Source of the DNA: Candidatus Spechtbacterales bacterium
Lineage (GTDB): Bacteria > Patescibacteriota > Minisyncoccia > Spechtbacterales > 2-12-FULL-38-22
Direction: 5' to 3'
Assembly: GCA_040902285.1 (NCBI GenBank)
Contig: JBBDXP010000007.1
Span: forward strand, 1,042-65,041
Length of the DNA: 64,000 nt
In this document: positions 11,776 to 62,188 of the stretch, one piece after another
Position numbering within the stretch: position 1 is the stretch's first letter
Layout: each line of letters opens with the position of its first letter
Program-made: the position numbers and the translations under genes
The notes under the pieces: model-generated
Seen by the model: the letters and a program-made list of their open reading frames with translations, nothing else
Databases searched by the model: none
Told to the model about the DNA's origin: nothing

Positions 11776-11785
11776 TTTTTTATTT

Positions 11786-12553: not shown

Positions 12554-12743
12554 ATGGCTAAATCTTACCACAAATGGGCCGATTGACAAATGAATACACG
12601 ATGCTATGTTGGGAATATGAAACATGCCCGGGTGGGTGAAATTGCGAGCAGTGCGCAGCAAGTTCACGGGTTCAAAAGAACCCCGGACCACCACCCGGAA
12701 CAGTTTTTTGTCTAAGTCCTGCGGAGCAGGACGAGAAATATAT

Positions 12744-12830
12744 GCCCGGGTGGTGGAACTGGCAGACACGCTGGACTCAAAATCCAGTGGTAGAAATACC
12801 GTGGAGGTTCAACTCCTCTCCCGGGCACCA
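12744..12830 (+). tRNA. tRNA-Leu (anticodon CAA), type II with long variable arm, CCA encoded
   Basis: The acceptor stem GCCCGGG pairs with CCCGGGC. The anticodon loop is CTCAAAA and the variable arm is long. The T-arm is GGTTCAACTCC and the sequence ends ACCA. Confidence 0.85.
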
Positions 12831-12869
12831 TTTAAGAAATTAAAATTTAATAAAAAAATATTTTAAATC

Positions 12870-13733: not shown

Positions 13734-13736
13734 AAT

Positions 13737-14975
13737 CTAAGAACCTTCGGGCACTGATCCGGCGGTTTCTTTGGCAATTTCCATGGGATCGATTTCCATC
13801 GGATCTTCTTTCATTAAAATAAATCCCAAAGAAAGAAATCCTGCCATTAAAAACACTATTGCCAAGTTGTCGGTAAACAAAAACACTAAAGCTAAAAATA
13901 AAAGAAAGACCCCGCGGGAAACATTTAAAGCTATCTCGCGCACTATTACGAGCCGGTCCCGGGTCGTTTTATATTTTCCGGCCCAGTCATAAAATATGGC
14001 GGCAAAAGGTATAAAGGCGGAATACGAACCGAAATTATGCAAAGTGTGAGCCAAAAAAGCATCGAAGGGTGTTCGTACAAACATTTTTATGGGCCAGAAA
14101 ACGGCGTTCAGAATGGATCCTATGGTCAGCAATTTCTCCGGCCCCATTTTATCCGATGCCTTGCCTATGAAGTATATAAATATCATTCCTATTACAAGAG
14201 CGGAAGAAATAATGGCGCCCAATTCTTCAAAACTTATTGCCAGCATAAAAAGATATAGAGGCCATATATAAGCATGGACGGCAAATTCCGCGCCCGCAAA
14301 CCCGAGAGCTGCAACTTTCGCCCTCCTGTTCTTTTTTAAAGTTTCTCTAAAGGCCTGCGTGAAATCATCCGGGTATTCTTCTTTTATTTCTTGGGATAAA
14401 AACAATGGTATTGTGGACGCAAATAATAAGGCAAGAACAATGGCGAAAAGTTCCGGAAATCCAAAAAATGTTATTACTAACCCCCCAACAAGCGGTCCAA
14501 AGGCCGAGGCAAGTGAAATAACGATATTGGCAACTCCCACTTCCTTGCCGCGCTTACCTTGTTCGGAAAATCTGGCAAAATCAATATGGAAAGCCGGCCA
14601 GTAGAGCAGGTTATGCATGACATGAAACGGAATAAGTATCAGAAAAAAGATACCTAATTTTTCTATTTGCCAAAGAGCCAGAAAATATAAAAACAGAAAC
14701 GGAACACTCCAGAGCATTGCGTGTTTTATGCCTAGCCGTGTGAGCATTTTTCCTCCAAAAGGCGCAAGCACACCGAACAAAATGGATACAATCGCAAAAT
14801 AAAGAAGAGTTAATGGAATAGATCTGTCAAAAAAAAGGAAGATATATATTGGTTCGAATATACCTACTAAAGAAATTGCAAACCCCCGTATAGCAGTAGA
14901 AGCATATAATTCTCCAAGTTCTTTATTGAAATGCGGCGATAGCCGGGCAAGATGCCCGTGCGTTAATAAAGCCAT
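13737..14975 (-). CDS. MFS-type transporter
   Basis: A 412-aa polytopic membrane protein with about 12 predicted TM helices and MFS-like loop motifs. Confidence 0.55.
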   Translation of the reverse strand: MALLTHGHLARLSPHFNKELGELYASTAIRGFAISLVGIFEPIYIFLFFDRSIPLTLLYFAIVSILFGVLAPFGGKMLTRLGIKHAMLWSVPFLFLYFLALWQIEKLGIFFLILIPFHVMHNLLYWPAFHIDFARFSEQGKRGKEVGVANIVISLASAFGPLVGGLVITFFGFPELFAIVLALLFASTIPLFLSQEIKEEYPDDFTQAFRETLKKNRRAKVAALGFAGAEFAVHAYIWPLYLFMLAISFEELGAIISSALVIGMIFIYFIGKASDKMGPEKLLTIGSILNAVFWPIKMFVRTPFDAFLAHTLHNFGSYSAFIPFAAIFYDWAGKYKTTRDRLVIVREIALNVSRGVFLLFLALVFLFTDNLAIVFLMAGFLSLGFILMKEDPMEIDPMEIAKETAGSVPEGS

Positions 14976-19223: not shown

Positions 19224-21683
19224 TTAGATAACCAGATTAACGACTTTGTTTTTGACCGCTATAGTTTTTTTAGGTTTTTTATCTCCCAAAATTTCCTTTA
19301 TTCTTTCGCTTTCCAAAGCGCTTTTAATTAAACGGCCTTCTTCCGTGTTGTTTTCCACTTCGATTTGAGCCCGTAGTTTTCCATTAATCTGCACGGGCAC
19401 GGTTATAATTTCCTGCTTCGTAATTTTTGCGTCAAACTCAGGCCAGACAGCATCGTGCACGCTTCCTTTTTGGCCTAAGCGTTCCCATAGTTCCTCTGTA
19501 ATATGCGGAGCGAAAGGCGCCAGCAAAACAAGCAGAGTTTCTATATCTTCGGGCGAGTGTTCATTTTCATAAAGCGCGTTCACATATGCCATCATAGCGG
19601 CAATAGCGGTGTTGTAATGCAAGCGTTCAATATCTTCCGTTACTTTTTTTATTGTCTGATGTTTTATCTTTTGTAAATTCTGTTTTGAGTTTGTCTCTTG
19701 CCTGCCTGCCGAAGCCTCTGCGGAGGCAGGTTGCTTGCCTGCCTGCCCCGTACTGGACTTGTCCTGGTACGGGGTTGTTTGTCTCTGAACGAGCCCCCAT
19801 ACTCTTCCTAAAAATCTATGAACTCCGCGTATGCCTTCGTCCTGCCAATCTCCCCCTTCGGCTAAAGGACTTAAAAACATAAGGTATGTGCGAAGAGTAT
19901 CGGCGCCAAATGCTTCAAAAAGCTCATCGGGATTCACAATATTTCCTTTAGATTTGCTTATTTTTGACCCTTCTTTTACCAGAAGGCCATGCGCCCTAAA
20001 TTTCTTAAAGGGCTCTTCGAAATTAAGAAGTTTTTGATCGCGCATAAACATAGTTATAAAGCGTGCATACATTAAATGAAGCACGGCATGTTCCTGGCCT
20101 CCAATATACATATCCACCGGCAGCCATCTTTCGGTTATTTTTTTATCCCATGCTATATTTTTTTCTCCGGAACTGGGATAGCGCAAAAAATACCATGAAG
20201 AATCCAGAAAAGTGTCCGAAACATCCGTTTCTCTTTTTGCCCTGCCCGCGCACTTGGGGCATTTTACATTTACAAATTCTTCAACGGCGGCAAGCGGAGA
20301 TTTATCGGTGCCTGTCGGCTGGAAATTTTCCACATAAGGCAGCAGCACGGGCAAATCCTTTTCGGCTACGGGTACCGTGCCGCAATTGTCGCAATATATT
20401 ATGGGTATTGGAGGCCCCCAATAGCGTTGGCGCGATATGAGCCAATCACGCAAATGATAGTTTACCTGAGGAATACCGCCTACGCTTTTTCCAATTTTTT
20501 CCCTAGCTTCTGATGAGGATATGCCATTGAATTTTTCCGAACCAACCAGATGGCCTTCTCCTTCATACGCTTTTTCCAAGACCGGGCATATTTTTTCCGG
20601 ATAATTCTGGCATATTACCTGTTTTGAAGGCAAGCCGTATTTTTTCGCAAATTCAAAATCTCTCTGGTCATGCGCGGGAACCGCCATTACAGCACCTGTT
20701 CCATATTCAGCTACAACATAATCCGATATCCAAACCGGTATTTCTTCTTTATTGGCGGGATTTATGGCGCTGATACCCTTCAGCTCAATCCCCGTTTTTT
20801 CATTGTTCTTGGTCTGTTTTTTGCTTTCGGATTTGTTTATATATGTTTCAATCTCTTTTTTATTGGTGATTGGTAATTGGGAAATTAGTTCATGTTTTGG
20901 GGACAACACAATATATGTCGCTCCGAACAAAGTATCCGCTCGTGTTGTGAAGATTTCGATTGAAAATTGAGAATTGAAAATTGGAAATTTTATACGGTAC
21001 CCCGTGCTTTTGCCTATCCAGTTGCGTTGCGCGATCTTTGTGTGTTCGGACCAGTCAATATTTTTAAGATTTTCCAATAATCTGTCCGCATAATCGGTTA
21101 TTTTTAAAAACCATTGGTTTAAATTTTTGCTTTCAACAACCGAATCGCATCTTTCACATCTTCCCGATATCACCTGCTCGTTAGCGAGAACGGTTTTACA
21201 ACTCGGGCACCACTGAACGGGAGCTTCTTTTTTGTACGCAAGACCTGCTTCGTAGAATTTTAAAAAAATCCACTGGGTCCACTTATAATATTCCGGATCA
21301 GTGGTGTTTATTATGTTATCCCAGGAATAGATGTTCCCGATGTATTCCAATTGTCTTCGAAAATTATCCGTACTTTTCTTTATTAGTTCCCTTGGGTGTA
21401 TGCCTTTTTTTAGAGCAAAATTTTCGGAATGAATCCCGAACGCGTCAAATCCTATTGGTTCAAAAACATCGTATCCTTTCTGCCGCATATAGCGTCCGTG
21501 TATATCCGAACCCACAAACGCGTAAAGATTGCCTATATGCAAGCCCTCCGCCGAAGGATAGGGAAACATCATTAGGTTATAATAGGGCTTTTTGTCCCCT
21601 TTTATATCAACCTGCCACCTCGCGTCGCGTATCCATTTTTCCCGCCACTTTTTCTCTATTTTTTGCGGATTATATTGTTCCAT
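19224..21683 (-). CDS. leuS: leucyl-tRNA synthetase carrying an in-frame GC-rich repeat insertion
   Basis: HIGNLYAFVGSDIHGRYMRQKGYDVFEPIGFDAFG is the HIGH region and a KMSKS-like SKSKGN is present. The low-complexity insert STGQAGKQPASAEASAGRQETNSKQ is encoded by the repeat at 19690-19790. Confidence 0.9.
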   Translation of the reverse strand: MEQYNPQKIEKKWREKWIRDARWQVDIKGDKKPYYNLMMFPYPSAEGLHIGNLYAFVGSDIHGRYMRQKGYDVFEPIGFDAFGIHSENFALKKGIHPRELIKKSTDNFRRQLEYIGNIYSWDNIINTTDPEYYKWTQWIFLKFYEAGLAYKKEAPVQWCPSCKTVLANEQVISGRCERCDSVVESKNLNQWFLKITDYADRLLENLKNIDWSEHTKIAQRNWIGKSTGYRIKFPIFNSQFSIEIFTTRADTLFGATYIVLSPKHELISQLPITNKKEIETYINKSESKKQTKNNEKTGIELKGISAINPANKEEIPVWISDYVVAEYGTGAVMAVPAHDQRDFEFAKKYGLPSKQVICQNYPEKICPVLEKAYEGEGHLVGSEKFNGISSSEAREKIGKSVGGIPQVNYHLRDWLISRQRYWGPPIPIIYCDNCGTVPVAEKDLPVLLPYVENFQPTGTDKSPLAAVEEFVNVKCPKCAGRAKRETDVSDTFLDSSWYFLRYPSSGEKNIAWDKKITERWLPVDMYIGGQEHAVLHLMYARFITMFMRDQKLLNFEEPFKKFRAHGLLVKEGSKISKSKGNIVNPDELFEAFGADTLRTYLMFLSPLAEGGDWQDEGIRGVHRFLGRVWGLVQRQTTPYQDKSSTGQAGKQPASAEASAGRQETNSKQNLQKIKHQTIKKVTEDIERLHYNTAIAAMMAYVNALYENEHSPEDIETLLVLLAPFAPHITEELWERLGQKGSVHDAVWPEFDAKITKQEIITVPVQINGKLRAQIEVENNTEEGRLIKSALESERIKEILGDKKPKKTIAVKNKVVNLVI
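19690..19790. repeat. GC-rich palindromic CCTGCC/GGCAGG element, copy A (two hairpin units), in frame inside leuS
   Basis: TTTGTCTCTTGCCTGCCTGCCGAAGCCTCTGCGGAGGCAGG + TTGCTTGCCTGCCTGCCCCGTACTGGACTTGTCCTGGTACGGGG + TTGTTTGTCTCTG. It is flanked by a TTTGTCTCT direct repeat. GC is much higher than the surrounding AT-rich coding sequence. Confidence 0.55.
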
Positions 21684-35908: not shown

Positions 35909-38900
35909 TTATTTTTTTATTATGCCTATTTTCATGTTGCCTCTGCCGTAATCTTCCGCTGCCCAGGGAAATTCCGCGGTTGCGTCATATTTTTTGCCGT
36001 CTAAACTATATTCCATTATCTTGGATGTGTTTGTATCTGAAATTATCCTGCTTTCCATTTTATACAAAGTTCCGCGCAACTGTTCCGGTAAAGAATAATG
36101 CACTATTATTTTTTTATCGGGCTTTAGGCCTAAAGATTTTCTTAATTTTTGTATGTGCCTTATAATTTCTCGCACCTGTCCCTCGAGCACTAAATCGGGA
36201 GATAAAACCGTTTTTAGCGCTGTGTTTCCGGCGTTAGTTTTTTCATATGCCCAATCTTTTTTATTTTTTATATTTGGCGATAAAACAATCTCTCTTACAT
36301 TCAGTTCTTCTTTTAGAAGAACTTGGTATTGTTTTTCCATACCTTTGGGCACGGCAAAAGATTCCAGGGGCTGACGAACTTTTATGGAATTTTCGGCTCT
36401 TAATTTTAATCCTGTTCCGGCCAGCTCTCTTACAAGTTCCATTTTATCCAACGCGCTCTTTTCCGCCTTTGATAATTTTTTGTAAACCGGAAATTTTTCC
36501 CAATGCACGCTCTTTGAATCGTCCGCGTTTACTTCCTGCCAAATATGTTCGGAAAGAAACGGGATAAAAGAGGCCGACATCTTGGATGTTTCGCCTAAAA
36601 CAAATGCCAATGTTCCGGCGGCGTCTTTAAGCGAATTTTTATCTTCGGGCCTCTGTAATCTTTCGCGGGAACGCCTTATGTACCAATTTGAAAGGTCTTC
36701 CACAACAAAATTATCCAACCCACGAGCCGCGTCAAGCACATTATACGCATCCATATTGCCGGCTGTTTTTTCTCCAAGTTCCCTTAAGCGCAACAGTATC
36801 CATTTGTCCAAAATATGTTTTGAATTTATTTTATTAATCAATTTGGGCGCTTTTTGCTTTGGCGCGTATGTTTTGAGAAAAACAAGAGAATTGTACAGTG
36901 TGGAAATAAATTTCTGCATGCGCTCCCGGACATCTTTTTCACTGAAGCGTTTAACAAACCCGGGACCGTTAACCGTAAAAAAGTACCATCGGACAGAATC
37001 CATTCCGTATTTTTCGGCCAAATAAAAAGGATCTACTATATTACCTTTGCTTTTAGACATTTTTTGGCCTCTTTCGTCCAAAACATGTCCTAAAGATATA
37101 ACATTTTTATAAGATGGCGCCTTTCCAAGAACCGCCGAAACGGCAAGCATTGTATAAAACCATCCCCTTGTCTGATCCACAGCTTCGGCTATATAATCGG
37201 CCGGATATATTTTTCCTTTTTCCAAATTTCTTTTATTTTCAAAAGGATAATGCGCCTGCGCAAAAGGCATCGCGCCCGAATCAAACCACACATCGGCCAA
37301 ATCCTCCACCCTGCGCATTACGCCGTTTTCGGAATTGCAAGCGGTACAAGGAAAATTTATAGCGTCTATATACGGCCTGTGAAAATCCAATTCTCCGAAC
37401 TTGTTGTAAGGAAACTTGCTGTATTTTATTTTACGCAGCCGGCCCACAAGCGGATAATTCTTGCTCCTTCTTGCAAATGCTTCTTTGGTTGTAAGACCCA
37501 AAAGCGCGCTTTCCAATAGCCATAAAGGGTCTCCATGGCTAATTATCAATATCTTTTTATTTTTATATTTGTTTTCCAGTTCGTTCGCGACTTTCAGCAT
37601 GCGCGCCTGAACGCTTATAAGGTTTTCGCCTTTCGGCGGAGCTTTGGTAAACCTTTCTTCGGTAGAAGAAAAAATGCCAAGATAATCCTTTTCAGAGTGG
37701 CCTTCAAAAATTCCTACGCTCACATCGACAAGGCGTTGATCATAAATAACTTTTTTTCCAAGCTCTTTTGCCACAATTTCCGCAGTTTGACGAGTGCGGG
37801 TTAGTGGAGATGCAACGATAATATCAACGCCGCCCAGTTTTTTAAGCTCCTTTGTCGCGCGCCTTATATCATTTATGCCCTTTGGGATTAGGCCATATTT
37901 GAGCCCCTTTTCGGGATATCTGCTTGCCAGTATGTTTTTAACGTTTCTTTCCGACATGCCATGCCTTAAAAAATAGTATTTATTCGCGCTCTTTGTCATT
38001 TTTGCTATATCCGCGCGCGAACCTATAACTTCTGTGTGTGCGCATTCGGCGCATTTCCATATGGGAAGAGGGGTGCCCCAATATCGGGAGCGTGAAAAAG
38101 CCCAATCCTTAACATCGCGCAGCCACTCCCCGAATCGCCCCTGCTTTATATATTCGGGAAACCAATTTATTTTTTCATTTGCCGCAAGCAGCGTTTTTTT
38201 AAGGTCGCCCATGCGCACAAACCATGATTGCATCGCGTAGTAAAGAAGAGGCGTGCCGCATCTCCAGCAAAAAGGATACGAGTGTTTGTAAGGAGAGGAT
38301 TTGTATAACAAATCTTTCGTTTTCAAATAATCTATTATTCCGGTCTCGGCGTTTTTTACGAATTGTCCCTTAAAATCTTTTACCCTGTCTGTAAAAAGGC
38401 CGTTTTCATCTACGGTGTGAATTTTTGGAAGGTCGAACTTTTCAGCCAATTTATAGTCGTCTTCTCCATACATAACGGCCGTGTGCACGATACCCGTACC
38501 GTCTTCCGTGCTGACAAAATCCGCATTCACAACTATGTGCTTGTTTACCGAATCAACGTCCTTAAGAGAATCGAACAGTGGCTCGTACTCAATATTCATG
38601 GCGGACAGTTCTTTTCCAGATATCTCCTTTACAAGCTCGTACTTTCCGTTCAAAACGCTCAGCAAATCTTTTGCCAAAATGTAATATTCATTCCCCTGCT
38701 TTGCTATAACATAAGTTATTTTAGAACCCACTGCCAAAGCCACATTTCCGGGCAATGTCCAGGGAGTTGTTGTCCAGGCCAAAAGATATGTCTTTGCCTT
38801 AAAATTATAAGAGGACGGATTTTTAACCCTGAATTTTACAAAAACCGATTCTTCCACAATGTCTTTATACCCCTGCGCCACCTCGTGAGAAGAAAGTCCC

Positions 38901-39436
38901 GTGCCGCATCTCGTGCACCTGGGGGTTACTTTGTGCCCCTCATAAAGAAGATTATTTTCCCAGGCATTTTTAATAACCCACCAAAGCGTTTCCATGTATA
39001 AAGGGTCATAAGTTATATACGGATCTTTCATATCTATCCAAAAACCCATTCTTTCGGTTAAAAATTCCCAATCGCTCTTATATTTCCAAACGGATTGGCG
39101 GCATTTTTCATTGAATCTCGCTACTCCGTATTTTTCTATGTCTTTTTTATTCTTTAATCCCAATGCCTTTTCCACTTCCAGTTCCACGGGCAATCCGTGC
39201 GTGTCCCAGCCGGCCCGCCTCTCAACTCTAAAACCGCGCATTGTTTTATAGCGGCATACTATGTCTTTAAAAGAACGTGCCAGAACATGGTGCAGTCCGG
39301 GCCTTCCATTCGCAGTCGGGGGACCTTCATAAAATATAAATTGCCTTTTTTTCGGCCTTCCCGAAACGCTTTTTTCAAATGCTCCGATGCGTTTCCAGTT
39401 TTCCAATATCCTGTTTTCGAGTTTGTTAAAATCCAT
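35909..39436 (-). CDS. ileS: isoleucyl-tRNA synthetase with a histidine-phosphatase-like domain inserted in the zinc-knuckle loop
   Basis: It has HHVLARS HIGH-like, KMSKS (QKMSKSKGN) and WCISR-like motifs. Total length is 1175 aa. Between WKCAEC (aa ~461-466) and CTAC (aa ~697-700) lies a ~220-aa insert with YYFLRHGMSE and ILIISHGDP motifs. Confidence 0.9.
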   Translation of the reverse strand: MDFNKLENRILENWKRIGAFEKSVSGRPKKRQFIFYEGPPTANGRPGLHHVLARSFKDIVCRYKTMRGFRVERRAGWDTHGLPVELEVEKALGLKNKKDIEKYGVARFNEKCRQSVWKYKSDWEFLTERMGFWIDMKDPYITYDPLYMETLWWVIKNAWENNLLYEGHKVTPRCTRCGTGLSSHEVAQGYKDIVEESVFVKFRVKNPSSYNFKAKTYLLAWTTTPWTLPGNVALAVGSKITYVIAKQGNEYYILAKDLLSVLNGKYELVKEISGKELSAMNIEYEPLFDSLKDVDSVNKHIVVNADFVSTEDGTGIVHTAVMYGEDDYKLAEKFDLPKIHTVDENGLFTDRVKDFKGQFVKNAETGIIDYLKTKDLLYKSSPYKHSYPFCWRCGTPLLYYAMQSWFVRMGDLKKTLLAANEKINWFPEYIKQGRFGEWLRDVKDWAFSRSRYWGTPLPIWKCAECAHTEVIGSRADIAKMTKSANKYYFLRHGMSERNVKNILASRYPEKGLKYGLIPKGINDIRRATKELKKLGGVDIIVASPLTRTRQTAEIVAKELGKKVIYDQRLVDVSVGIFEGHSEKDYLGIFSSTEERFTKAPPKGENLISVQARMLKVANELENKYKNKKILIISHGDPLWLLESALLGLTTKEAFARRSKNYPLVGRLRKIKYSKFPYNKFGELDFHRPYIDAINFPCTACNSENGVMRRVEDLADVWFDSGAMPFAQAHYPFENKRNLEKGKIYPADYIAEAVDQTRGWFYTMLAVSAVLGKAPSYKNVISLGHVLDERGQKMSKSKGNIVDPFYLAEKYGMDSVRWYFFTVNGPGFVKRFSEKDVRERMQKFISTLYNSLVFLKTYAPKQKAPKLINKINSKHILDKWILLRLRELGEKTAGNMDAYNVLDAARGLDNFVVEDLSNWYIRRSRERLQRPEDKNSLKDAAGTLAFVLGETSKMSASFIPFLSEHIWQEVNADDSKSVHWEKFPVYKKLSKAEKSALDKMELVRELAGTGLKLRAENSIKVRQPLESFAVPKGMEKQYQVLLKEELNVREIVLSPNIKNKKDWAYEKTNAGNTALKTVLSPDLVLEGQVREIIRHIQKLRKSLGLKPDKKIIVHYSLPEQLRGTLYKMESRIISDTNTSKIMEYSLDGKKYDATAEFPWAAEDYGRGNMKIGIIKK

Positions 39437-41134: not shown

Positions 41135-41608
41135 ATGAGTGTCACTCCTATGTCAGAAAAAGTTTACGCAAAAAATAAAAAGGCGTTTTTTGACTATAAT
41201 ATCCTTGATACTTATGAGGCAGGAATAAAGTTAAAGGGATATGAGGTCAAATCAATAAAAAAGGGGCTTGCGGATCTGCAGGGCAGTTTTGCAATTATAC
41301 GGGGGCAGGAAGCATACATAACAAATATGGCCGTGCCACCTTACCAGAAAGAAAATATACCTCAAAATTATGACGCCGAGCGCACAAGACAGCTTCTTTT
41401 GCATAAAAAACAGATAAAAGAATTGGAAGAAACGCTCAAAAGAGGCGGGTTGACTTTAATACCCCTTAAATTGTATAATAAGAAAGGTCTTGTGAAGGTT
41501 GAATTGGCGCTTTCCCGTGGAAAAAGAAAATACGACAAAAGACAGACAATAAAGAAAAGGGAAGACGAAAGAAAGATACGAAGATCATTGAAAAGATCAG
41601 GAGTGTGA
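41135..41608 (+). CDS. smpB: SsrA-binding protein
   Basis: KKAFFDYNILDTYEAGIKLKGYEVKSIK... is the conserved SmpB core. Confidence 0.9.
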   Translation: MSVTPMSEKVYAKNKKAFFDYNILDTYEAGIKLKGYEVKSIKKGLADLQGSFAIIRGQEAYITNMAVPPYQKENIPQNYDAERTRQLLLHKKQIKELEETLKRGGLTLIPLKLYNKKGLVKVELALSRGKRKYDKRQTIKKREDERKIRRSLKRSGV

Positions 41609-41632
41609 GATTCTGTTCGAATCTCACACTCC
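41600..41632 (+). promoter_or_regulatory. perfect 14-bp hairpin spanning the smpB stop codon and abutting the tmRNA 5' end (terminator or processing structure)
   Basis: GGAGTGTGAGATTC-TGTTC-GAATCTCACACTCC. Confidence 0.4.
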
Positions 41633-41635
41633 TAT

Positions 41636-41986
41636 GGGAGCGGCTTACGCGGCTTCGATAAGTTCTTATTAGTATAAATTGCAGATCGAGTGCGCCTGAA
41701 TCTCGCAAAACTTCGGGCAACCCTTTAAGTGCAAACAAACAACCAGCACTTGCTTACGCATAAATTCCGTAAGCCATCGCACTAAATGATTCCTGATAGT
41801 TTAGATGCGGTGTCATTCATCAGGATAGCCAAACGCTCGTCCGCGCGTTCGGTGAAAATTAGGGCTAGGATATTACGGTGTTTTGTTTATTTTTTAGCCG
41901 TTTTATCCGAACAATAAAAATAAACTATATCTGTAGACATTTATGCCGATACGGCTTACACAGGGGTTCGAATCCCCTCGCTTCCA
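41636..41986 (+). ncRNA. ssrA: tmRNA (ssrA), ~351 nt
   Basis: The 5' GGGAGCG pairs with the 3' CGCUUCC, including a G3:U70 alanine identity pair. The T-arm is GGGGTTCGAATCCCC, then discriminator A. The internal tag ORF GCA AAC AAA CAA CCA GCA CTT GCT TAC GCA TAA encodes ANKQPALAYA* at 41731-41763. It is located immediately after smpB. Confidence 0.8.
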
Positions 41987-42014
41987 CATTAGTGTTAAAA
42001 ATTTAAGTTAAAAT

Positions 42015-47717: not shown

Positions 47718-48666
47718 AGACCTGGCGGATTATCTCTTCCATCGCCTCGCTAAACACAGAATCGTACTCATCAGGCATAAATCTGTCTTCAAAAACAACT
47801 CTGTGACAAAGCACAGGTTTAGAAAGTTCTATCAGATCCTCCGGCAGGACATAATCCCTGCCGCGCAAAACAGCCAGCGCTTTTGCGCTTCGCACAAGGG
47901 CCATGGGCACCCGCGTTGAACCGCCTGTAGAAAAGTTCTCTTTCGAGACATCGGAATTTTCCGGGCGGGTCAGTTCAACCATTGTAACTGCCTTATCGAC
48001 CAAAACCGGATCTATCCTAACTTCTTTTTCTATAAGTTTCTGAATGGAAAGGATATCAGAACCGTCCATGATCTTTTCGACCGGACCCGGTTCGGAAGAC
48101 ATGGTCGCTATTCTTACGGTTTCCTCATGGCTTGGATAGCCAACAAACACCTTCATAAGAAAGCGGTCTTCCTGGGCTTCCGAAAGAGGATAGGTACCCT
48201 CCTGTTCGATCGGGTTTTGTGTCGCAAAAACCAAAAATGGCCTGGAAAGCGCTTCGGTGCCTTTTTCCGATGTAACTTGCCTCTCCTGCATTGCTTCCAA
48301 AAGCGCGCTTTGCACTTTAGGACTCGTGCGATTAAGCTCGTCTGTCAGAAGAAAGTTGGTATAAATTGGACCGGGCAAAAAAGCGACTTTGCCGTCTTCT
48401 TTTATGTGTGGAACCGACCACAGGTCGCGAGGATATAGGTCAGGGGTCATCTGGATCCTTTTGAAGTCCACATTCGTGGCCTGCGCAAGGGTATTGATGA
48501 GATACGTCTTTCCGGTGCCGGGCACTCCTTCAAGAAGAACGTGCCCGTCGGCAAAGACCGCGACGAGAAGATGATCTATTACATCATCCATGCCCACAAT
48601 TCTCCTGTGGACCTCATCCCTAACAGTACCCATCAATTCATGGGCTTTCTGTAGGCCTTTAATCAT
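47680..48666 (-). CDS. MoxR-family AAA+ ATPase
   Basis: HVLLEGVPGTGKTYLINTLAQ is the Walker A motif and LLTDELNRTSPKVQSALLEAMQERQV is sensor/arginine-finger-like. Size is ~320 aa. Confidence 0.85.
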   Translation of the reverse strand: MIKGLQKAHELMGTVRDEVHRRIVGMDDVIDHLLVAVFADGHVLLEGVPGTGKTYLINTLAQATNVDFKRIQMTPDLYPRDLWSVPHIKEDGKVAFLPGPIYTNFLLTDELNRTSPKVQSALLEAMQERQVTSEKGTEALSRPFLVFATQNPIEQEGTYPLSEAQEDRFLMKVFVGYPSHEETVRIATMSSEPGPVEKIMDGSDILSIQKLIEKEVRIDPVLVDKAVTMVELTRPENSDVSKENFSTGGSTRVPMALVRSAKALAVLRGRDYVLPEDLIELSKPVLCHRVVFEDRFMPDEYDSVFSEAMEEIIRQVFGWEGSNGKVRT

Positions 48667-48719
48667 GTCTTTCTCCTTAAATTGTCAAGAAAACTGTGCT
48701 AACTATACCTAAAATAAAA

Positions 48720-48748
48720 AGAGGAGTCAATGTTTTATTGACTCCTCT
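48720..48748 (-). terminator. perfect 12-bp hairpin terminator
   Basis: AGAGGAGTCAAT-GTTTT-ATTGACTCCTCT, followed on the minus strand by TTTTTATTTT. It overlaps the stop of a small basic ORF. Confidence 0.5.
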
Positions 48749-48897
48749 TCAATTTTTACGGACTCGGTTCTTGTAAACTTTTTATACAGACGTTCGATTT
48801 GTTCTTGGCGTTCATCAACAGAAGAAAATTCCCGCCTTATCCGGGATTTTTCTTTGCGTATATGTTTCCTAATGCTGTAAGATAATTTGGCTTTCAT
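48727..48897 (-). CDS. small basic hypothetical protein (56 aa)
   Basis: MKAKLSYSIRKHIRKEKSRIRREFSSVDERQEQIERLYKKFTRTESVKIEEESIKH. It is shorter than the track cutoff and has no recognisable family. It lies between murE and its terminator. Confidence 0.3.
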   Translation of the reverse strand: MKAKLSYSIRKHIRKEKSRIRREFSSVDERQEQIERLYKKFTRTESVKIEEESIKH

Positions 48898-48900
48898 TTT

Positions 48901-50247
48901 CTAAAGATATAATTTACTGAACTCTTCCCTTGCTACCTGCCTGTCATCCCACGGCACAGGCCCCTTAGCGGTCATCATTAAGGGCTCCGCACCCTTTCCG
49001 GTTATAATTACATTATCGCCTTCTTTGGCTTTTTTCAATGCTTCTCTTATTGCCTGTCGCCGATCTAAGATTTTTTCGTAGTTTATTTCTTGTTTCTTGT
49101 CTGCCTGCCGAAGCCCTGTCCGTCCGGCAGGCGGGCTCGGCGCAGATAGGTATCTTGTGTCTTCAGAAAGTCCCGATTCAATATCCTTTAGAATACTTTC
49201 GGGATTTTCTGTGTAGGGATCTTCGTCCGTTAAAATTATTTCATCGCAATGTTCGCTTGCGATTTCTCCAAGCTTGGGTCTTTTCCATTTGTCCCTGCCT
49301 CCGCCTGCGGCTCCCAGAACGCATATAGTTCTTCCACCCTTTTTTTGCCGTAATTGCTCCGATACCGTGTTGTAAACTTTCTCCAAAGCATCGGGTGTAT
49401 GGGCATAATCAACAACAACATTAAATGGCTCGCCTATAACTACTTCAGCTCTGCCCGGCACGCCCGGAAAGCTTGATAATATATCGGCCATTTTATCCAT
49501 GGGTATTCCCTGCGCTCTGCCTGCGCCTATCGCGGCTAAAACATTATACGCGTTAAATTTCCCGAGAATGGGAATTGAAAATTTATTATCCCTTATATAA
49601 AAATTTATGCCCCTGTCCTCCAGTTTTAATTTTTCGGCAAGTATTTCCTCTGTGCCAAGTGAAGCACTGCCGGGATTGAGCGTATATCCAATTTTTTCAA
49701 TAGCCGGAAATTGCAGGAAATAATTGGCATTTTCATCGTCCAAGTTTACCACGGAAGCCCTGTGGCGCAAAGAAAAGAATTTGCCTTTCGCGTTTTTGTA
49801 ATTTTCAAAAGAACCGTGGCTCTCTATATGTTCGGGGGTCAAATTAGTAAATACGGCGGTATCAAATTCAATAAATTTATGTCTGTTTTGCCTAACGCCC
49901 TCGCTTGTAACTTCTATTACCGCGAACTGGCAACCGGCATCCGCCGCCTTGCGCAAAAACAGATGCAGTTTCATCCTTCCCGGCATTGTCATTTTAAGCT
50001 TGTTGGGCCATTCTTCGTTGCCTATTTTAAATCGCAGCGAAGAAATAGAAGCAGTTTTATAACCGGCGTTTTCCAGCAAATAAGAACAAAGATGTGCTAC
50101 GCTTGTTTTGCCGTTAGTGCCAGTGATACCGATAACTTTTATTTCTTTTGAAGGGTGTCCGTAAAGAAAAGCGCCCAAAGCGGGCCATGCGGAATGATAC
50201 GCTTCCAATACTGAAGGTGGGATAAATTTTTTGATTAGTTCTTTCAC
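48901..50247 (-). CDS. murE: UDP-N-acetylmuramoyl-tripeptide ligase MurE, probably L-Lys-adding type, with an in-frame GC-rich repeat insertion
   Basis: GITGTNGKT is the P-loop. TNLTPEHIESHGSFENYKNAK is the Mur central domain. LGAAGGGRDKWKRPKLG...ILTDEDPYTENP occupies the place of the DNPR motif. The C-terminal GKGAE motif is present. The insert LSAPSPPAGRTGLRQADKKQ sits near the C-terminus. Confidence 0.75.
   Translation of the reverse strand: MKELIKKFIPPSVLEAYHSAWPALGAFLYGHPSKEIKVIGITGTNGKTSVAHLCSYLLENAGYKTASISSLRFKIGNEEWPNKLKMTMPGRMKLHLFLRKAADAGCQFAVIEVTSEGVRQNRHKFIEFDTAVFTNLTPEHIESHGSFENYKNAKGKFFSLRHRASVVNLDDENANYFLQFPAIEKIGYTLNPGSASLGTEEILAEKLKLEDRGINFYIRDNKFSIPILGKFNAYNVLAAIGAGRAQGIPMDKMADILSSFPGVPGRAEVVIGEPFNVVVDYAHTPDALEKVYNTVSEQLRQKKGGRTICVLGAAGGGRDKWKRPKLGEIASEHCDEIILTDEDPYTENPESILKDIESGLSEDTRYLSAPSPPAGRTGLRQADKKQEINYEKILDRRQAIREALKKAKEGDNVIITGKGAEPLMMTAKGPVPWDDRQVAREEFSKLYL
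49095..49146. repeat. GC-rich palindromic element, copy B, in frame in murE
   Basis: TCTTGTCTGCCTGCCGAAGCCCTGTCCGTCCGGCAGGCGGGCTCGGCGCAG is near-identical to copy C. Confidence 0.55.
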
Positions 50248-51158
50248 AGGATATTTTTTATTCTATATAAAATATACCAAAAACGGCTAATAGGAAGATC
50301 GAAACTGCCCAAGTATTTTACTTCTTTTCCACCGAAACCTTTTTTAAAACGAGTTAAGCCGGGCCATTTTTTTTCATTAATTCCCCAAAGGTCATAATAC
50401 CCCAGAGATTCTCTTTTTGCATCTCGGATTATTTTCCAGTGCATAAGATAAGGCGCCATATGCTTTCTTAATTTGTAATCGGACGCTCCATGCAAATATG
50501 TGGCTGTGTTTCCGGCAAATACGACTATCGCGGCGGATGCGAGCTTGCCGTCTTTATACGCGATATATAGGCGCGCAATATCCATATCCAAAAGCTTTTT
50601 GTAATAATCTTTTGTATGCGTACTGAATTTATCGCGAAGTGCTGTGTCCAAAATCAACGACCACCACATATTAAAATCGGTCTGTTTATTTTTTGATAAA
50701 ACCGCTTCAACTCCCCGTTTTTGGGCCACGCGCAAATTGTATCTGGTCTTTTGTCCCATTTGCCCAAGAAGCTTTTCTTCGCTTTCTTTAAGATCTAAAA
50801 CTATGGTTTTCTGCGGCTGGAGTTCTTTGCTCGATTTAACAAAACCAAGCCGGCTTAATCCTTGTCTCTTGCCTGCCTGCCGAAGCCCTGCCCGTCCGGC
50901 AGGCGGGCTCGGCGCAGGCAGGTTGTTTGTTGCTTGTTGTTGTACAAGTGGCTCCCACTTAAAAAATATCGCGCCCTCAGCGCGTCCGATATTTTTTATT
51001 TCCTCCAAATATTCAAGCGCGTCGGGATAATTGGAATACAGATAACTTTTTCCCAAAGGAACATCCAGCTTAATCATGTACCCCGCGCCTAAATCAAAAC
51101 TCTTGCGCCCGGTGCTTTCCTGAAATTTTCTCCATTGTGGCAAGTTAAGAAAACTCAT
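50244..51158 (-). CDS. FemAB-family peptidoglycan interpeptide-bridge aminoacyltransferase (putative) with an in-frame GC-rich repeat insertion
   Basis: Length and composition fit FemX/FemAB GNAT-fold transferases. It is adjacent to the Lys-type murE. The insert NNLPAPSPPAGRAGLRQAGKRQ is encoded by repeat copy C. Confidence 0.5.
   Translation of the reverse strand: MSFLNLPQWRKFQESTGRKSFDLGAGYMIKLDVPLGKSYLYSNYPDALEYLEEIKNIGRAEGAIFFKWEPLVQQQATNNLPAPSPPAGRAGLRQAGKRQGLSRLGFVKSSKELQPQKTIVLDLKESEEKLLGQMGQKTRYNLRVAQKRGVEAVLSKNKQTDFNMWWSLILDTALRDKFSTHTKDYYKKLLDMDIARLYIAYKDGKLASAAIVVFAGNTATYLHGASDYKLRKHMAPYLMHWKIIRDAKRESLGYYDLWGINEKKWPGLTRFKKGFGGKEVKYLGSFDLPISRFWYILYRIKNIL
50862..50945. repeat. GC-rich palindromic element, copy C, in frame in the femAB-like gene
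   Basis: CTTGTCTCTTGCCTGCCTGCCGAAGCCCTGCCCGTCCGGCAGGCGGGCTCGGCGCAGGCAGG followed by a TTGTTTGTTGCTTGTTGTTG tail. The arms are inverted repeats (CTGCCTGCCGAAGCCC.../...GGGCTCGGCGCAGGCAG). Confidence 0.55.
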
Positions 51159-51736
51159 TATTTTTGGCCCAAAATTTTTAATGCCTCTTTTACTTTATCT
51201 TCCGTGCGTTCCAAGTCCTCGGGTATTTGTTTTAAAACACTTTGCGCCTGTTGCCTAGAATACCCCAAACTCTCCAGCGCTTCAACAACATCACTCTCTC
51301 CTCGTATGTCTCCGGCAAGAGCGCCCCATTCGGTTCCAAATTTGTCTTTTAGTTCAAGTATTATTTTTTGGGCTATTTTATTTCCTATGCCGGACACCCT
51401 GGTCAGTATGGAGGTATCGCCTTCGGCAATGGCCCTCTGAAGCATGTTTATGGGCGCCGCGTTCAGAATATTTAGAGCGCCTCTTGGGCCCACGCCTGAA
51501 ATTTTAATTAGAATTTCGAACATATTGCGTTCTTCCTTCTCTAAAAATCCGTAAAGCTCGGCTGTGTTTTCGCGCAAATAATAATGTGTAAACACTTCTA
51601 TGTCTTGTCCTGTTTTTTTAGATAAATCATCCGCTGTTCTTGCCGCGCATTGAATCTCATATCCTACGCCTCCAACCTCGACAACAGCCGAATTTTTACC
51701 CGTTTCTCTAATTGTGCCTTTTAACAAAGCTATCAT
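51158..51736 (-). CDS. ruvA: Holliday junction branch migration protein RuvA
   Basis: MIALLKGTI...VVEVGGVGYEI is the RuvA domain I motif. HhH motifs are present. Confidence 0.88.
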   Translation of the reverse strand: MIALLKGTIRETGKNSAVVEVGGVGYEIQCAARTADDLSKKTGQDIEVFTHYYLRENTAELYGFLEKEERNMFEILIKISGVGPRGALNILNAAPINMLQRAIAEGDTSILTRVSGIGNKIAQKIILELKDKFGTEWGALAGDIRGESDVVEALESLGYSRQQAQSVLKQIPEDLERTEDKVKEALKILGQK

Positions 51737-51746
51737 GTTTTTATAG

Positions 51747-51834
51747 TCGAGGATACGAGCGAAAAGAAAAAGATTAAATCATAGAAAGCTTGCTTTCAAA
51801 GATTTAAGATTTTTCTTTTCCGAGCGCCGCAGAC
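51747..51834. repeat. AAAAGAAAA hairpin element, locus 1 (upstream of ruvA)
   Basis: CGAGGATACGAGCGAAAAGAAAAA-[38-nt insert containing the GAAAGCTTGCTTTC palindrome]-ATTTTTCTTTTCCGAGCGCCGCAGAC. It shares about 45 nt with locus 2 at 60591-60650. Confidence 0.45.
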
Positions 51835-60998: not shown

Positions 60999-61412
60999 TC
61001 ACGCACGGTAGTGCATGATCTTGTCGAGCGAGTTGAACTTCTGGTCTGACCAGTAGAACATCAGCGTCCACCGGCCGTTCGTCCAGGCCAGATACGGAAC
61101 TCGAAGCGAACCGGTCCGGTCGCGCCACAGAGTGGCGGGAAAGACCAGGTTGAACCTCTGCCGGTGTTCCGGGATCAGGTCCTGGTGATCCACAAACCAT
61201 TCGGCCGTCATCATGCCGACGTTGGCGCCGAACCATATGGCTCTCTTGCGTAGCTCCTCCAGCCAGACGTATTGCTCGTCGGGAAGAAGGAAGCCGATGG
61301 GGGTGTAGTCACCAAAGCGGTGATCCGGACCTTCCTGAACAAGTTCCCAGCCCTTTTCGATGTAGATTTCGTCCGGGGCCAGGTCCTTATGTTCCGACAC
61401 TATGCGTGCCAT
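60999..61412 (-). CDS. hypothetical protein on GC-rich island c (138 aa from MARIVSEHK)
   Basis: GC is strongly elevated. An AGGAAGGAG RBS lies 7 nt upstream of the ATG at 61412. No known motif; the protein is Trp-rich (WELVQEGPDHRFGDY...WTNGRWTLMFYW). Confidence 0.45.
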   Translation of the reverse strand: MARIVSEHKDLAPDEIYIEKGWELVQEGPDHRFGDYTPIGFLLPDEQYVWLEELRKRAIWFGANVGMMTAEWFVDHQDLIPEHRQRFNLVFPATLWRDRTGSLRVPYLAWTNGRWTLMFYWSDQKFNSLDKIMHYRA

Positions 61413-61480
61413 GGCAAACTCCTTCCTCAGAAATTGCAAAGTGCAATGCAGATTCTTTGTCTGCAATGTCTATATTATAT
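61413..61480 (-). promoter_or_regulatory. promoter (-10 TATAAT) plus two palindromic operator-like sites in the 5' UTR of the island c gene
   Basis: Minus-strand sequence is TTTATGATATAATATAGACATTGCAGACAAAGAATCTGCATTGCACTTTGCAATTTCTGAGGAAGGAG. The palindromes are TGCAGA-N7-TCTGCA and ATTGCA-N3-TGCAAT. Confidence 0.35.
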
Positions 61481-61525
61481 CATAAATAAAAATAAAAAAC
61501 AAGGTTTTAGCTTGCTTTTTGGGGA

Positions 61526-61669
61526 GATACGCGCAGTATTGTTTTTAACGACCGCGGTTCTGTTTTTCCTGCGAAAACAGACCGCTCCCTCTCGGCATTT
61601 TCGCCTCGCTACACTCGGACCAAGCCGAAAATGCCTCCGAGAATCGTTAAAAACAATACCGCGCGTATC
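61526..61669. repeat. 144-nt highly structured imperfect inverted repeat (candidate ncRNA or MITE-like element) directly downstream of the zinc-ribbon gene
   Basis: GATACGCGCAGTATTGTTTTTAACGA ... TCGTTAAAAACAATACCGCGCGTATC is a 26-bp stem with one mismatch. Inner arms are CTCGGCATTTTCG/CGAAAATGCCTCCGAG. A nested hairpin CTGTTTT-TCCTGCG-AAAACAG is also present. Confidence 0.45.
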
Positions 61670-61675
61670 CCTTTA

Positions 61676-62188
61676 CTACTTGGGCCACCAAACACGCACC
61701 CGTGCCGTATCCTCCCCTTTCGAAAATTGTATATCCACCTCAGCACCCTTGTGTGCTTTTTCTATTTCTTTACCAATGGCCATTGCAAGCTGGTTCTCCG
61801 ATGTTTTTATTTCAATTTTGTCGCCCAAATAATGAAAATCCAATATCCTGTCCAAAACATCTCTTTGGTGGGCGCGCTCGGCTATGTTGTTGACTTGATT
61901 CAGCACCTCTTTGCCAAGTCCCACTGGTATGTTTTCGATTATTACTTGCCCCTCAAATAATCCTTTCTTTTTCATATCATCCGCCGGACAAAGAACAAAT
62001 TTTATTCGCTTATCCGGATTTGCGCGCCGATATTCTTCCAAACCGTGGTGCCAGCTTTTTTCAAAATACACGGCGTTGCACTCCGGACATATTAAAATAT
62101 CCTGTTTGCCCGGGCCGAATTCCTGCTCTTCCTTTTTGGGGCGAGGAAATTCTCCGTGAAACGGTTGTGATGGTATTTTGTCTGTCAT
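61676..62188 (-). CDS. hypothetical protein with an N-terminal CxxC...C zinc-ribbon-like motif
   Basis: ICPECNAVYFEKSWHH...FVLCPADD. 170 aa with no confident family. Confidence 0.4.
   Translation of the reverse strand: MTDKIPSQPFHGEFPRPKKEEQEFGPGKQDILICPECNAVYFEKSWHHGLEEYRRANPDKRIKFVLCPADDMKKKGLFEGQVIIENIPVGLGKEVLNQVNNIAERAHQRDVLDRILDFHYLGDKIEIKTSENQLAMAIGKEIEKAHKGAEVDIQFSKGEDTARVRVWWPK

What the first reader, a model, noticed from the sequence alone, without database searches (positions are those of the whole stretch)
49095..49146. Copy B of the GC-rich palindromic element inside murE
This is the same element as copy C with 2-3 substitutions. It lies within the C-terminal region of the Lys-type MurE and produces the insert SAPSPPAGRTGLRQADKKQ. 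Near-identity between B and C suggests recent spread or gene conversion. MurE and FemAB act in the same pathway, so both being hit may be coincidence or may reflect tolerated loop positions.
Basis: seen in the sequence. Interest (0 to 1): 0.55.

Follow-up and report, generated by a model that had tools for sequence, protein, structure and literature searches.

The report
Tiny mobile DNA hairpin inside murE
A 51-base GC-rich DNA hairpin sits in frame in a floppy surface loop of an otherwise intact cell-wall enzyme gene, and its 30-base core recurs almost unchanged in genes of uncultivated bacteria from many phyla, so it looks like a very small mobile element that no paper in the library describes.

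Summary
Window 49095-49146 differs from the FemX-gene copy (offset +1772) at 3 of 52 bases, and it encodes MurE residues 368-386, SAPSPPAGRTGLRQADKKQ.

The gene is a real MurE from a Candidatus Spechtbacteria (CPR) MAG. Its closest homologues, including a syntenic relative, lack 23 aa (69 nt) at this point. The AlphaFold2 model has mean pLDDT 91, and only residues 364-384 fall below 50. The insert therefore lies in a disordered loop of the C-terminal domain, in a position that varies from 11 to 38 aa across 115 CPR MurE proteins.

The element is more than a local repeat. Copies B and C are a 30-nt hairpin, CCTGCCTGCCGAAGCCTCGGCGCAGGCAGG, with a 21-nt hairpin nested in its loop. The 30-mer itself occurs in more than 120 metagenome contigs (GC 0.32-0.68), in 11 viral contigs, and in MAGs of at least seven phyla. 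There it sits in frame in MurB, LeuRS, GltX, AhcY, PriA and HsdM.

Homologous sequences with the site filled or empty show a discrete 30-nt insertion with no target duplication. The 30-mer has no stop codon in any of the six frames. I found no transposase nearby and no mention in the literature searched.

My reading is a non-autonomous miniature palindromic mobile element, translated here as a neutral loop. How it moves is unknown.

The parts
48901..50247 (-). Host gene murE (448 aa; lacks the N-terminal domain, as its CPR homologues do)
   Evidence: Pfam Mur_ligase_M and Mur_ligase_C; TIGR01085 at 358 bits against a cut-off of 257. AF2 model with pLDDT 91.3 matches E. coli MurE 1e8c at TM 0.83.
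49100..49150 (+). Copy B hairpin core, 51 nt. It is the 30-nt element H, split into 16 + 14 nt by a nested 21-mer.
   Evidence: Four differences from copy C, all of which weaken pairing in B. RNA fold -31.5 kcal/mol, z -3.3.
49116..49136 (+). The 21-nt hairpin nested in the loop of H (CTGTCCGTCCGGCAGGCGGGC)
   Evidence: Alignment with the basic 30-mer. Not found in 156 other loci, and no C-type match appears among the metagenome loci listed.
49083..49099 (+). Left flank of heptamer-like repeats (TTTCTTG x2), part of the extra 69 nt. Encodes KKQEIN.
   Evidence: TRF row 49086-49100, period 7. Similar flanks (TTGTCTCTTG) border copies A and C.
49151..49163 (+). Right flank TATCTTGTGTCTT, a near-direct repeat of the left flank. 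Encodes EDTRY.
   Evidence: (family D2).
50872..50922 (+). Copy C, the better-preserved twin, in frame in the FemX-like gene (50244-51158, - strand)
   Evidence: -38.8 kcal/mol. The FemX protein is 304 aa here and 286 aa in the syntenic relative L155.
19701..19730 (+). Copy A, a plain 30-nt H with 2 substitutions, in LeuRS (19224-21683, - strand). It is read in a different frame (ASAGRQ).
19738..19774 (+). Second, partial unit next to copy A: the H left arm CCTGCCTGCC fused to an unrelated hairpin, CCCCGTAC...GTACGGGG

Best explanation
Copy B is a decaying copy of a non-autonomous miniature palindromic mobile DNA element that landed in murE.

The unit is a 30-nt hairpin, H: a 7-bp outer stem, a 2-nt bulge, a 5-bp inner stem and a 4-nt loop. 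In this genome H has acquired a second 21-nt hairpin in its loop and is bordered by heptamer-like repeats. Together these add 69 nt (23 aa).

The copy persists for three reasons. The added lengths (30, 21 and 69 nt) are multiples of three. The sequence has no stop codon in the reading frame; H has none in any of the six frames. And the site is a disordered, hypervariable surface loop of the C-terminal domain. The ribosome therefore reads through, and MurE carries a harmless extra loop.

B and C are each other's closest relatives. One was copied from the other over 1.8 kb, by local transposition or by gene conversion. B has since taken GC-to-AT changes that weaken its stem.

Shown here: the insertion and its boundaries, the loop location, the intact enzyme, the architecture of H with the nested hairpin, the mobility of H (filled and empty sites, no target duplication), and its cross-phylum spread in coding DNA.

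Inferred: that the insert is translated, that it is neutral, the direction of copying, and that movement depends on an enzyme supplied in trans. I favour a single-strand, hairpin-recognising transposase of the HUH/Y1 kind, as proposed for REP elements, but with low confidence.
For: - Insert absent from homologues. It is missing from 15 close homologues. Relative to P0002 and P0003 the window protein has +23 aa. The syntenic relative L155 keeps the order PolX-RuvA-FemX-MurE-MoxR and lacks both inserts.
- Loop location. In the AF2 model only residues 364-384 fall below pLDDT 50. The phmmer alignment to T. maritima MurE 4bub breaks at query residues 367/390. The loop spans 11-38 aa in 115 CPR MurE proteins.
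- DNA level, not peptide level. Copy A shares the DNA but is read in another frame.
- H elsewhere. 22 GTDB loci, 120 or more metagenome loci and 11 viral loci. 76 of 139 instances are the exact 30-mer.
- In frame in unrelated genes. MurB, AhcY, GltX, LeuRS, HsdM, PriA and a Y2 transposase.
- No strand or frame bias. Both orientations and all six frames among candidate CDS, 18 against 18.
- Discrete insertion. Two alternative sites in one host repeat are filled in some loci and empty in others, with no duplication. There is no general TSD.
- Stop-free. H has no stop codon in any of the six frames.
- Non-autonomous. None of the 57 window ORFs hit a transposase, RT or HUH family; several ORFs had no Pfam hit at all. 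No mobilising gene recurs near H in 153 loci.
- Real sequence. An independent assembly is identical.
Against: - No enzyme or master copy was found, so the mechanism of movement is a conjecture.
- The exact-pattern scans force sequence identity, so true diversity and copy number per genome are unknown.
- All 22 GTDB hits are MAGs. There was no full-length match in 7.3 Gb of plasmids or 2.3 Gb of phages from cultured hosts. That distribution is odd for an ordinary mobile element.
- Translation of the insert is not demonstrated.
- With only three copies in about 70 kb, orientation or strand statistics are not possible in this genome.
Confidence: 0.78

Rival explanations
1. B and C resemble each other because of gene conversion or template switching between two adjacent genes. 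An element would have transposed only once into the operon, or never within this genome, and the second copy was pasted by homology-driven repair using the heptamer-like flanks.
For: The copies are 1772 nt apart, in the same orientation and the same reading frame. Similarity runs about 15 nt beyond the hairpin on each side: 81 nt at 85%. The nested variant was found nowhere else.
Against: H itself clearly inserts at unrelated sites elsewhere. MurE and FemX homologues share no sequence at these loops that could prime conversion. Conversion and local hopping cannot be told apart with two copies.
Confidence: 0.35
2. The hairpins are selected RNA or DNA structures in the femX-murE operon. They would act as ribosome-pausing, RNase-processing or attenuation signals that tune the expression of cell-wall genes.
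For: The folds are strong on the mRNA strand, -24.6 kcal/mol for B and -38.3 for C, z -3.2 to -4.0. Two neighbouring genes of one pathway carry them.
Against: Relatives lack them. B is losing base pairs, since all 4 of its differences weaken the stem. H shows no orientation bias relative to coding. It sits in unrelated genes, in intergenic repeats and in viruses. There is no Rfam match and no terminator-like T run.
Confidence: 0.07
3. The inserted peptide is a selected protein feature, such as a linker or an interaction motif added to MurE and FemX.
For: The same peptide frame (PPAGR.GLRQA.K.Q) occurs in both enzymes.
Against: The insert is predicted to be disordered, with pLDDT below 50. Copy A uses another frame, and across metagenomes all six frames are used. 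The peptide has no relatives among 5.8 billion proteins.
Confidence: 0.04
4. The insert is an assembly or sequencing artefact.
For: H has so far been seen only in metagenome-derived assemblies.
Against: An independent Logan assembly is identical over 15.6 kb. The insertion is clean and in frame, with both flanks continuous. The copies differ by point substitutions. H occurs in assemblies made by many groups with several different assemblers.
Confidence: 0.02
5. The 69 nt are not translated. They would be skipped by translational bypassing or removed from the mRNA, as with the GC-rich 'byp' inserts of Magnusiomyces mitochondria (from my own knowledge).
For: It is a GC-rich hairpin insert in an AT-richer coding sequence.
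Against: All three window copies, and the copies in other phyla, are in frame and stop-free in the host frame. That would not be needed if they were skipped. No take-off/landing codon pair is evident.
Confidence: 0.03

Closest known systems
Rickettsia palindromic elements (RPE)
   Same: Both are palindromic repeats inserted in frame into unrelated housekeeping genes, at positions compatible with the protein fold, and presumably translated (review PMC10969869).
   Different: RPEs are about 100-150 bp, occur as ten families confined to Rickettsia, and each encodes one conserved peptide. The present core is 30 nt (51 nt here), is read in all six frames, and is found in many phyla and in viral contigs.
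REP / REPIN elements mobilised by RAYT (HUH/Y1) transposases
   Same: Both are GC-rich imperfect palindromes of 20-40 nt with a bulge, non-autonomous, and without target-site duplication. A trans-acting single-strand transposase is the proposed driver for REP/REPIN (PMC3116915).
   Different: REPs are extragenic, species-specific in sequence, present in hundreds of copies, carry a conserved 5' tetranucleotide, and have a RAYT gene flanked by REPs. Here the copies are intragenic, the same 30-mer crosses phyla, there is no conserved flanking tetranucleotide, and no RAYT-like gene was seen.
Small dispersed repeats (SDR) of heterocystous cyanobacteria (Elhai et al. 2008, Genome Res 18:1484; recalled from memory, paper not held)
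   Same: Both are very small mobile repeats (SDRs are 21-27 nt), far below MITE size. As I recall, SDRs also nest inside other repeats and are associated with tandem heptamer repeats, and their mechanism is unknown.
   Different: SDRs were described only in Nostoc/Anabaena relatives. Sequence relatedness to H was not tested. H is a 30-nt hairpin seen in CPR, Verrucomicrobiota, Gammaproteobacteria, Bacteroidota, Nitrospirota, Omnitrophota and viral contigs.
MITEs (Correia, ERIC, BOX and others)
   Same: Both are non-autonomous, have inverted-repeat ends and sometimes produce in-frame gene fusions (PMC10969869).
   Different: MITEs are 50-500 bp, have target-site duplications, and match the ends of a parent IS. 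H is 30 nt, has no TSD, and no parent IS was found.
Mobile GC clusters / byp elements of yeast mitochondria (own knowledge)
   Same: Both are short GC-rich palindromes that invade AT-richer genomes, including coding sequence.
   Different: The yeast elements are organellar and eukaryotic, and byps are skipped by the ribosome. Here the reading frame is kept, so read-through suffices.

Membership tests
MurE (UDP-MurNAc-tripeptide synthetase), host gene | Mur_ligase_M and Mur_ligase_C domains, and a murE-level HMM score above the cut-off | tested here: met
   PF08245 at 1.8e-42, PF02875 at 2e-24, TIGR01085 at 358.2 bits against a cut-off of 257.3. The fold matches 1e8c at TM 0.83.
MurE, mDAP-adding type | DNPR motif whose Arg contacts mDAP (own knowledge of E. 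coli MurE) | tested here: not met
   The motif reads DEDPY at residues 341-345. The DAP-ligase equivalog NF001126 scores 362.7 bits, below its cut-off of 373. Lys specificity is not thereby proven.
REP / REPIN | Imperfect GC-rich palindrome of 20-40 nt | tested here: met
   The 30-nt H has 7 + 5 bp stems with a 2-nt bulge.
REP / REPIN | Extragenic location and high copy number within one genome | tested here: not met
   All 3 window copies are inside genes. There are only 3 copies in about 70 kb, and usually 1 per contig elsewhere.
REP / REPIN | Associated RAYT (Y1/HUH) gene; conserved 5' tetranucleotide | tested here: not met
   No such gene among the 57 window ORFs, and none recurring in 153 loci. 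Flank positions -4 to -2 show no consensus; only position -1 favours G, in 74 of 125. The rest of the genome was not available.
MITE | Target-site duplication and length of 50-500 bp | tested here: not met
   No TSD at the filled/empty sites. Direct flank repeats of 6 nt or more occur in 15% of instances against 5% in controls. The length is 30-51 nt.
MITE | Ends shared with an autonomous IS | tested here: inconclusive
   No IS bounded by H arms was seen in the loci held. The collection scans allow gaps that vary by at most 30 nt, so long elements could not be searched.
Rickettsia palindromic elements | Sequence membership in one of the RPE families; about 100-150 bp; Rickettsia host | tested here: not met
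   The size is 30-51 nt and the host is a CPR bacterium. Sequence comparison with RPE consensus sequences was not possible, as none is held.
Cyanobacterial SDR | Sequence identity to SDR1-8; cyanobacterial host | not testable with these tools
   The paper is not held and no SDR sequences are available. None of the 22 GTDB hits is a cyanobacterium.
Known structured RNA families (Rfam 15) | Covariance-model match | tested here: not met
   Nothing at gathering thresholds. Nothing with E up to 10 overlaps the element.
Intrinsic terminator | GC-rich stem followed by a T run | tested here: not met
   The scan of 48600-51400 does not flag B or C. The operon's terminator is at 48718-48750.

The most novel reading that the evidence does not exclude
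The 30-nt hairpin CCTGCCTGCCGAAGCCTCGGCGCAGGCAGG is a previously undescribed ultra-small mobile element that crosses phyla. It is kept nearly invariant because an unknown, horizontally shared machinery recognises it. It inserts without target duplication into coding DNA, other repeats, its own loop and viral genomes. It would thus be a general source of loop insertions in proteins of uncultivated bacteria, with copies B and C showing how it grows by nesting.
Probability: 0.35. Interest if true: 0.85.

Novelty: new variant of a known kind. Interest (0 to 1): 0.6.

Why it matters
For this gene the answer is reassuring. murE is not a pseudogene, and the odd peptide is a tolerated loop.

The wider point is that one 30-base hairpin turns up in essential genes of bacteria from unrelated phyla and in viral contigs. 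It is clean, in frame and stop-free. If it is an active element, three things follow:
- It is among the smallest mobile DNAs known.
- It would help explain the many unexplained short inserts in CPR proteins.
- It poses a concrete question: what copies a 30-mer faithfully across phyla?

It is also a practical warning for annotation. Such inserts lengthen proteins, break profile alignments and create spurious low-complexity 'motifs'.

Tried and rejected
- Rfam at gathering thresholds and at E up to 10: no match on the element.
- Terminator scan: B and C are not flagged.
- Peptide search with the concatenated B and C peptides against 5.8 billion proteins: 7 candidates shared words, none scored.
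- Search for the nested 21-mer as an independent element: none in 156 loci. One viral hit lies in a high-GC contig without H arms, and I judged it chance.
- Full-length H in PLSDB plasmids and INPHARED phages: only partial chance-level matches.
- Literature: no paper contains the DNA sequence or the peptide LRQAGK. Nothing on in-frame palindromic elements in CPR. Elhai 2008 is not held.
- Mobilising gene: all-against-all clustering of 3160 ORFs from 153 loci gave only housekeeping and restriction-modification clusters. Window ORFs are all housekeeping or have no Pfam hit.
- IS91-type CTTG target: CTTG precedes all three window copies, but it was imposed by my first scan pattern and disappears in the unconstrained set. 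Rejected.
- CRISPR repeat: no arrays; copies are solitary. Rejected.
- Group II intron domain V, intein, or intron: wrong size and motifs. Rejected on inspection.
- Extending the genome view: three look-ups failed on start-codon mismatch. The two that worked added about 6.5 kb and no further copy.

Full report
**1. The observation**

The stretch 49095-49146 is as described. It matches 50867-50918 at 49 of 52 positions. The 41-nt core occurs twice in the window with at most one mismatch, where none is expected by chance. An 81-nt alignment of the two sites is 85% identical (family D2).

A third site at 19691-19716 shares the left end (family D7). Only these three sites in 64 kb carry the arm GCCTGCCGAAGCC exactly. 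They are the standout GC-rich hairpins among the window's GC-rich islands.

An independent Logan assembly of run SRR27977660 is identical over 15,568 nt and includes both B and C. The sequence is therefore not a quirk of one assembler.

**2. The host gene**

ORF 48901-50247 (- strand, 448 aa) has Mur_ligase_M and Mur_ligase_C domains and passes the murE model TIGR01085, at 358 bits against a cut-off of 257. The identical protein is on record for a Candidatus Spechtbacteria MAG, on a 123.7-kb contig.

Like all its CPR homologues, it starts at about profile position 72-90, so it lacks the usual N-terminal domain. The invariant Mur-ligase residues are present.

The mDAP-recognition motif DNPR reads DEDPY here. 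'Lys-type' is therefore plausible but not shown.

The gene overlaps the stop codon of a FemAB-family gene (50244-51158), which carries copy C. Copy A lies in LeuRS, 19224-21683.

**3. It is an insertion, and where it sits**

Fifteen close homologues lack the segment. Between the conserved ILTDEDPY and ILDRR motifs, the window protein has 60 residues. P0002 (77% identity) and P0003 have 37. The difference is +23 aa, or 69 nt.

A syntenic relative, L155, keeps the order PolX-RuvA-FemX-MurE-MoxR. Its FemX is 286 aa against 304 here, and its MurE 427 aa against 448, so both inserts are absent.

phmmer against T. maritima MurE (4bub) splits the alignment at query residues 367/390, while the chain is continuous there.

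An AlphaFold2 model built on 115 sequences has mean pLDDT 91.3. Only residues 364-384 fall below 50. They lie between helix 362-366 and strand 389-392 of the C-terminal domain. The model superposes on E. coli MurE 1e8c at TM 0.83 and rmsd 2.2 Å, and on S. aureus MurE 4c12 at TM 0.82.

Across 115 CPR MurE proteins this loop ranges from 11 to 38 residues. It holds other peptides that look repeat-derived, such as ISINQPNQHKSAV and SQIPNSKFQIP. It is a hot spot for tolerated insertions.

**4. Anatomy**

I aligned the three copies with the consensus found in other genomes.

- **Copy C** reads CCTGCCTGCCGAAGCC + CTGCCCGTCCGGCAGGCGGGC + TCGGCGCAGGCAGG. That is a 30-nt hairpin, which I call H, with a 21-nt hairpin inserted exactly in its loop.
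- **Copy B** is the same 51-mer with four substitutions: 49100 T, 49119 T, and 49146-49147 AT. Each removes a G-C pair. This explains why B folds at -31.5 kcal/mol and C at -38.8.
- **Copy A** is a plain 30-nt H with two substitutions. It is followed by a second H left arm fused to an unrelated hairpin.

A is read as ...ASAGRQ..., while B and C are read as ...GLRQAGK.... What is conserved is therefore the DNA, not a peptide.

All three copies are bordered by similar heptamer-like repeats (TTGTCTC / TTGTTTC). In B these make up the remaining 18 nt of the 69.

**5. The 30-mer is not local**

*GTDB species genomes.* A scan with only the left arm gave 22 loci. In about 17 of them the unsearched right side is the complementary arm. 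The record titles name Kaiserbacteria, Doudnabacteria, Saccharibacteria, Patescibacteria, Omnitrophica, Verrucomicrobiota, Gammaproteobacteria, Cyclobacteriaceae, Thermodesulfovibrio and Deltaproteobacteria.

Eleven viral contigs also matched. The CCT that completes the 7-bp outer stem was not in the pattern, yet it is present in 99 of 125 instances. Of 139 instances, 76 are the exact 30-mer. Rare diverged copies show compensatory arm changes, for example TG to CA on one arm paired with CA to TG on the other.

*Coding context.* H lies in frame inside MurB, S-adenosylhomocysteine hydrolase (AhcY), GltX, LeuRS, HsdM, PriA and a Y2 transposase. Pfam confirms each host protein. Among candidate CDS in the metagenome set, both orientations and all six frames occur, 18 against 18. 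H has no stop codon in any of the six frames.

**6. Mobility**

One repeat family occurs in several metagenome contigs...GATTTCG / GGSGCCCC...CTTGCATCTG / RGCATTTTTGA.... In L034, L050, L101 and L131, H occupies the first junction. In L037, L058, L068, L076 and L122 it occupies the second. L101 shows the second junction empty, and L058 and L122 show the first junction empty. In each case exactly the 30-mer is added and nothing is duplicated.

Across 125 instances there is no general target duplication, and the stem does not extend into the flanks. Position -1 is G in 74 of 125. Direct flank repeats of 6 nt or more occur in 15% of instances against 5% in shuffled pairings. This reflects frequent siting inside short tandem (often heptamer) repeats or at the tip of larger palindromes.

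Variants with extra bases in the loop recur: 33, 36, 43, 50 and 57 nt, plus the 51 nt seen here.

**7. What moves it is unknown**

No transposase, integrase, RT or HUH family was hit by any of the 57 window ORFs. All are housekeeping or have no Pfam hit.

Clustering 3160 ORFs from 153 loci found no recurrent mobilising gene. The largest clusters are HsdM (7 loci) and an ABC transporter (6 loci), followed by a large DNA-methylase-like protein in 5 loci that I named by eye, not with Pfam.

There is no Rfam family and no terminator signature. No full-length match exists in 7.3 Gb of plasmids or 2.3 Gb of phages. No paper in the library contains the sequence.

The nested 51-nt form was found nowhere else (none among the loci listed). 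B and C therefore arose from one another within this lineage. This happened after the split from P0002's lineage, which is 77% identical and has an empty site.

**8. Interpretation**

Copy B is best read as an in-frame, read-through copy of a miniature palindromic mobile element in a permissive loop of a functional MurE, and it is slowly decaying.

In a gene-dense CPR genome, the only copies that survive are those that keep the frame, carry no stop and land in loops. That filter accounts for all three window copies.

The pairing of MurE with FemX is explained by adjacency, through local copying or conversion, rather than by shared pathway.

In behaviour the element resembles RPEs (in-frame palindromes; PMC10969869). 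In form it resembles REPs (a short bulged GC hairpin, no duplication, trans mobilisation; PMC3116915). In scale it resembles the cyanobacterial small dispersed repeats (from memory). It fails the defining tests of each family. I therefore file it as a new variant of the miniature palindromic mobile-repeat kind.

The cross-phylum near-identity of a 30-mer, seen so far only in uncultivated organisms, remains unexplained. It is what gives the finding its interest.

**9. Limits**

- The collection scans were exact-pattern and capped, so identity among hits is partly forced and abundance is unknown.
- Taxonomy rests on MAG record titles and on contig GC content.
- Translation and neutrality of the insert are inferred.
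- The SDR comparison rests on memory.

Noticed in passing
window 35909-39436 (- strand): The isoleucyl-tRNA-synthetase-like protein (1175 aa) has a complete histidine-phosphatase domain (His_Phos_1, residues 488-657) inserted within the class I synthetase catalytic domain.
   Followed up: no
window 20862-20880 and 20959-20989 (inside LeuRS): Tandem heptamer repeats (ATTGGTA x2.7, ATTGAAA x4.4) lie inside the LeuRS gene and encode ...PIFNSQFSIEIF... in the editing domain. They are the same kind of heptamer tracts that flank the hairpin elsewhere, here without a hairpin.
   Followed up: partly
MurE homologues P0006, P0008, P0011, P0012, P0043, P0098 and others (alignments A1, A2): Other CPR MurE proteins carry different short inserts at this loop and at two other loops, for example RRSGQAGF, KQIPNSN and AKGEARPGQQFFRQRRGSPG. 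Independent repeat-derived insertions appear to be common in this protein family.
   Followed up: partly
L034, L037, L050, L058, L068, L076, L101, L122, L131 (around the hairpin): A separate, unidentified repeat family of about 100 nt or more (...GGATTTCG GGGGCCCCCGCAGGGGCGGGATTTCGCAAAGCTCAACTTGCATCTG GGCATTTTTGAGCAGCC...) recurs in several metagenome contigs and hosts the 30-mer at two alternative sites.
   Followed up: partly
L005 (hsdM) and L057: Type I restriction-modification HsdM genes recur near or around the 30-mer (7 of about 150 loci). In L005, and by eye in L057, they also carry a GIY-YIG nuclease domain inserted near the C-terminus.
   Followed up: no
window about 10000-14000: The GC skew changes sign here (positive before about 10 kb, negative after about 14 kb) and gene orientation flips. 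parB and parA (10906-12769) and tRNA-Leu (12744-12830) lie at the switch, so this may be a replication origin or terminus.
   Followed up: no
window 41135-41989: smpB (41135-41608) is immediately followed by the tmRNA gene (41636-41989, tag ANKQPALAYA).
   Followed up: no
window 48718-48750: A 14-bp perfect hairpin with T runs on both strands lies downstream of murE. It is a likely bidirectional terminator between murE and the MoxR-like gene.
   Followed up: no
window 61526-61551 / 61644-61669 and 51761-51820: Two further inverted repeats were seen. One has 26-nt arms, 96% complementary and 92 nt apart, inside or next to the unannotated ORF 61272-61832. The other is a 29-nt AT-rich near-perfect palindrome in the RuvA-PolX intergenic gap.
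   Followed up: no
L003 and L009 (the same Gammaproteobacteria MAG): The 30-mer is embedded in a repeat of more than 100 nt shared by the two contigs (ccttgggg...CTTG-H-GAACCCCTTGCGGATTGGTTCCCCGCGGCAGAGCCGCGGGGTA...). In some genomes it therefore travels as part of a larger composite repeat.
   Followed up: no
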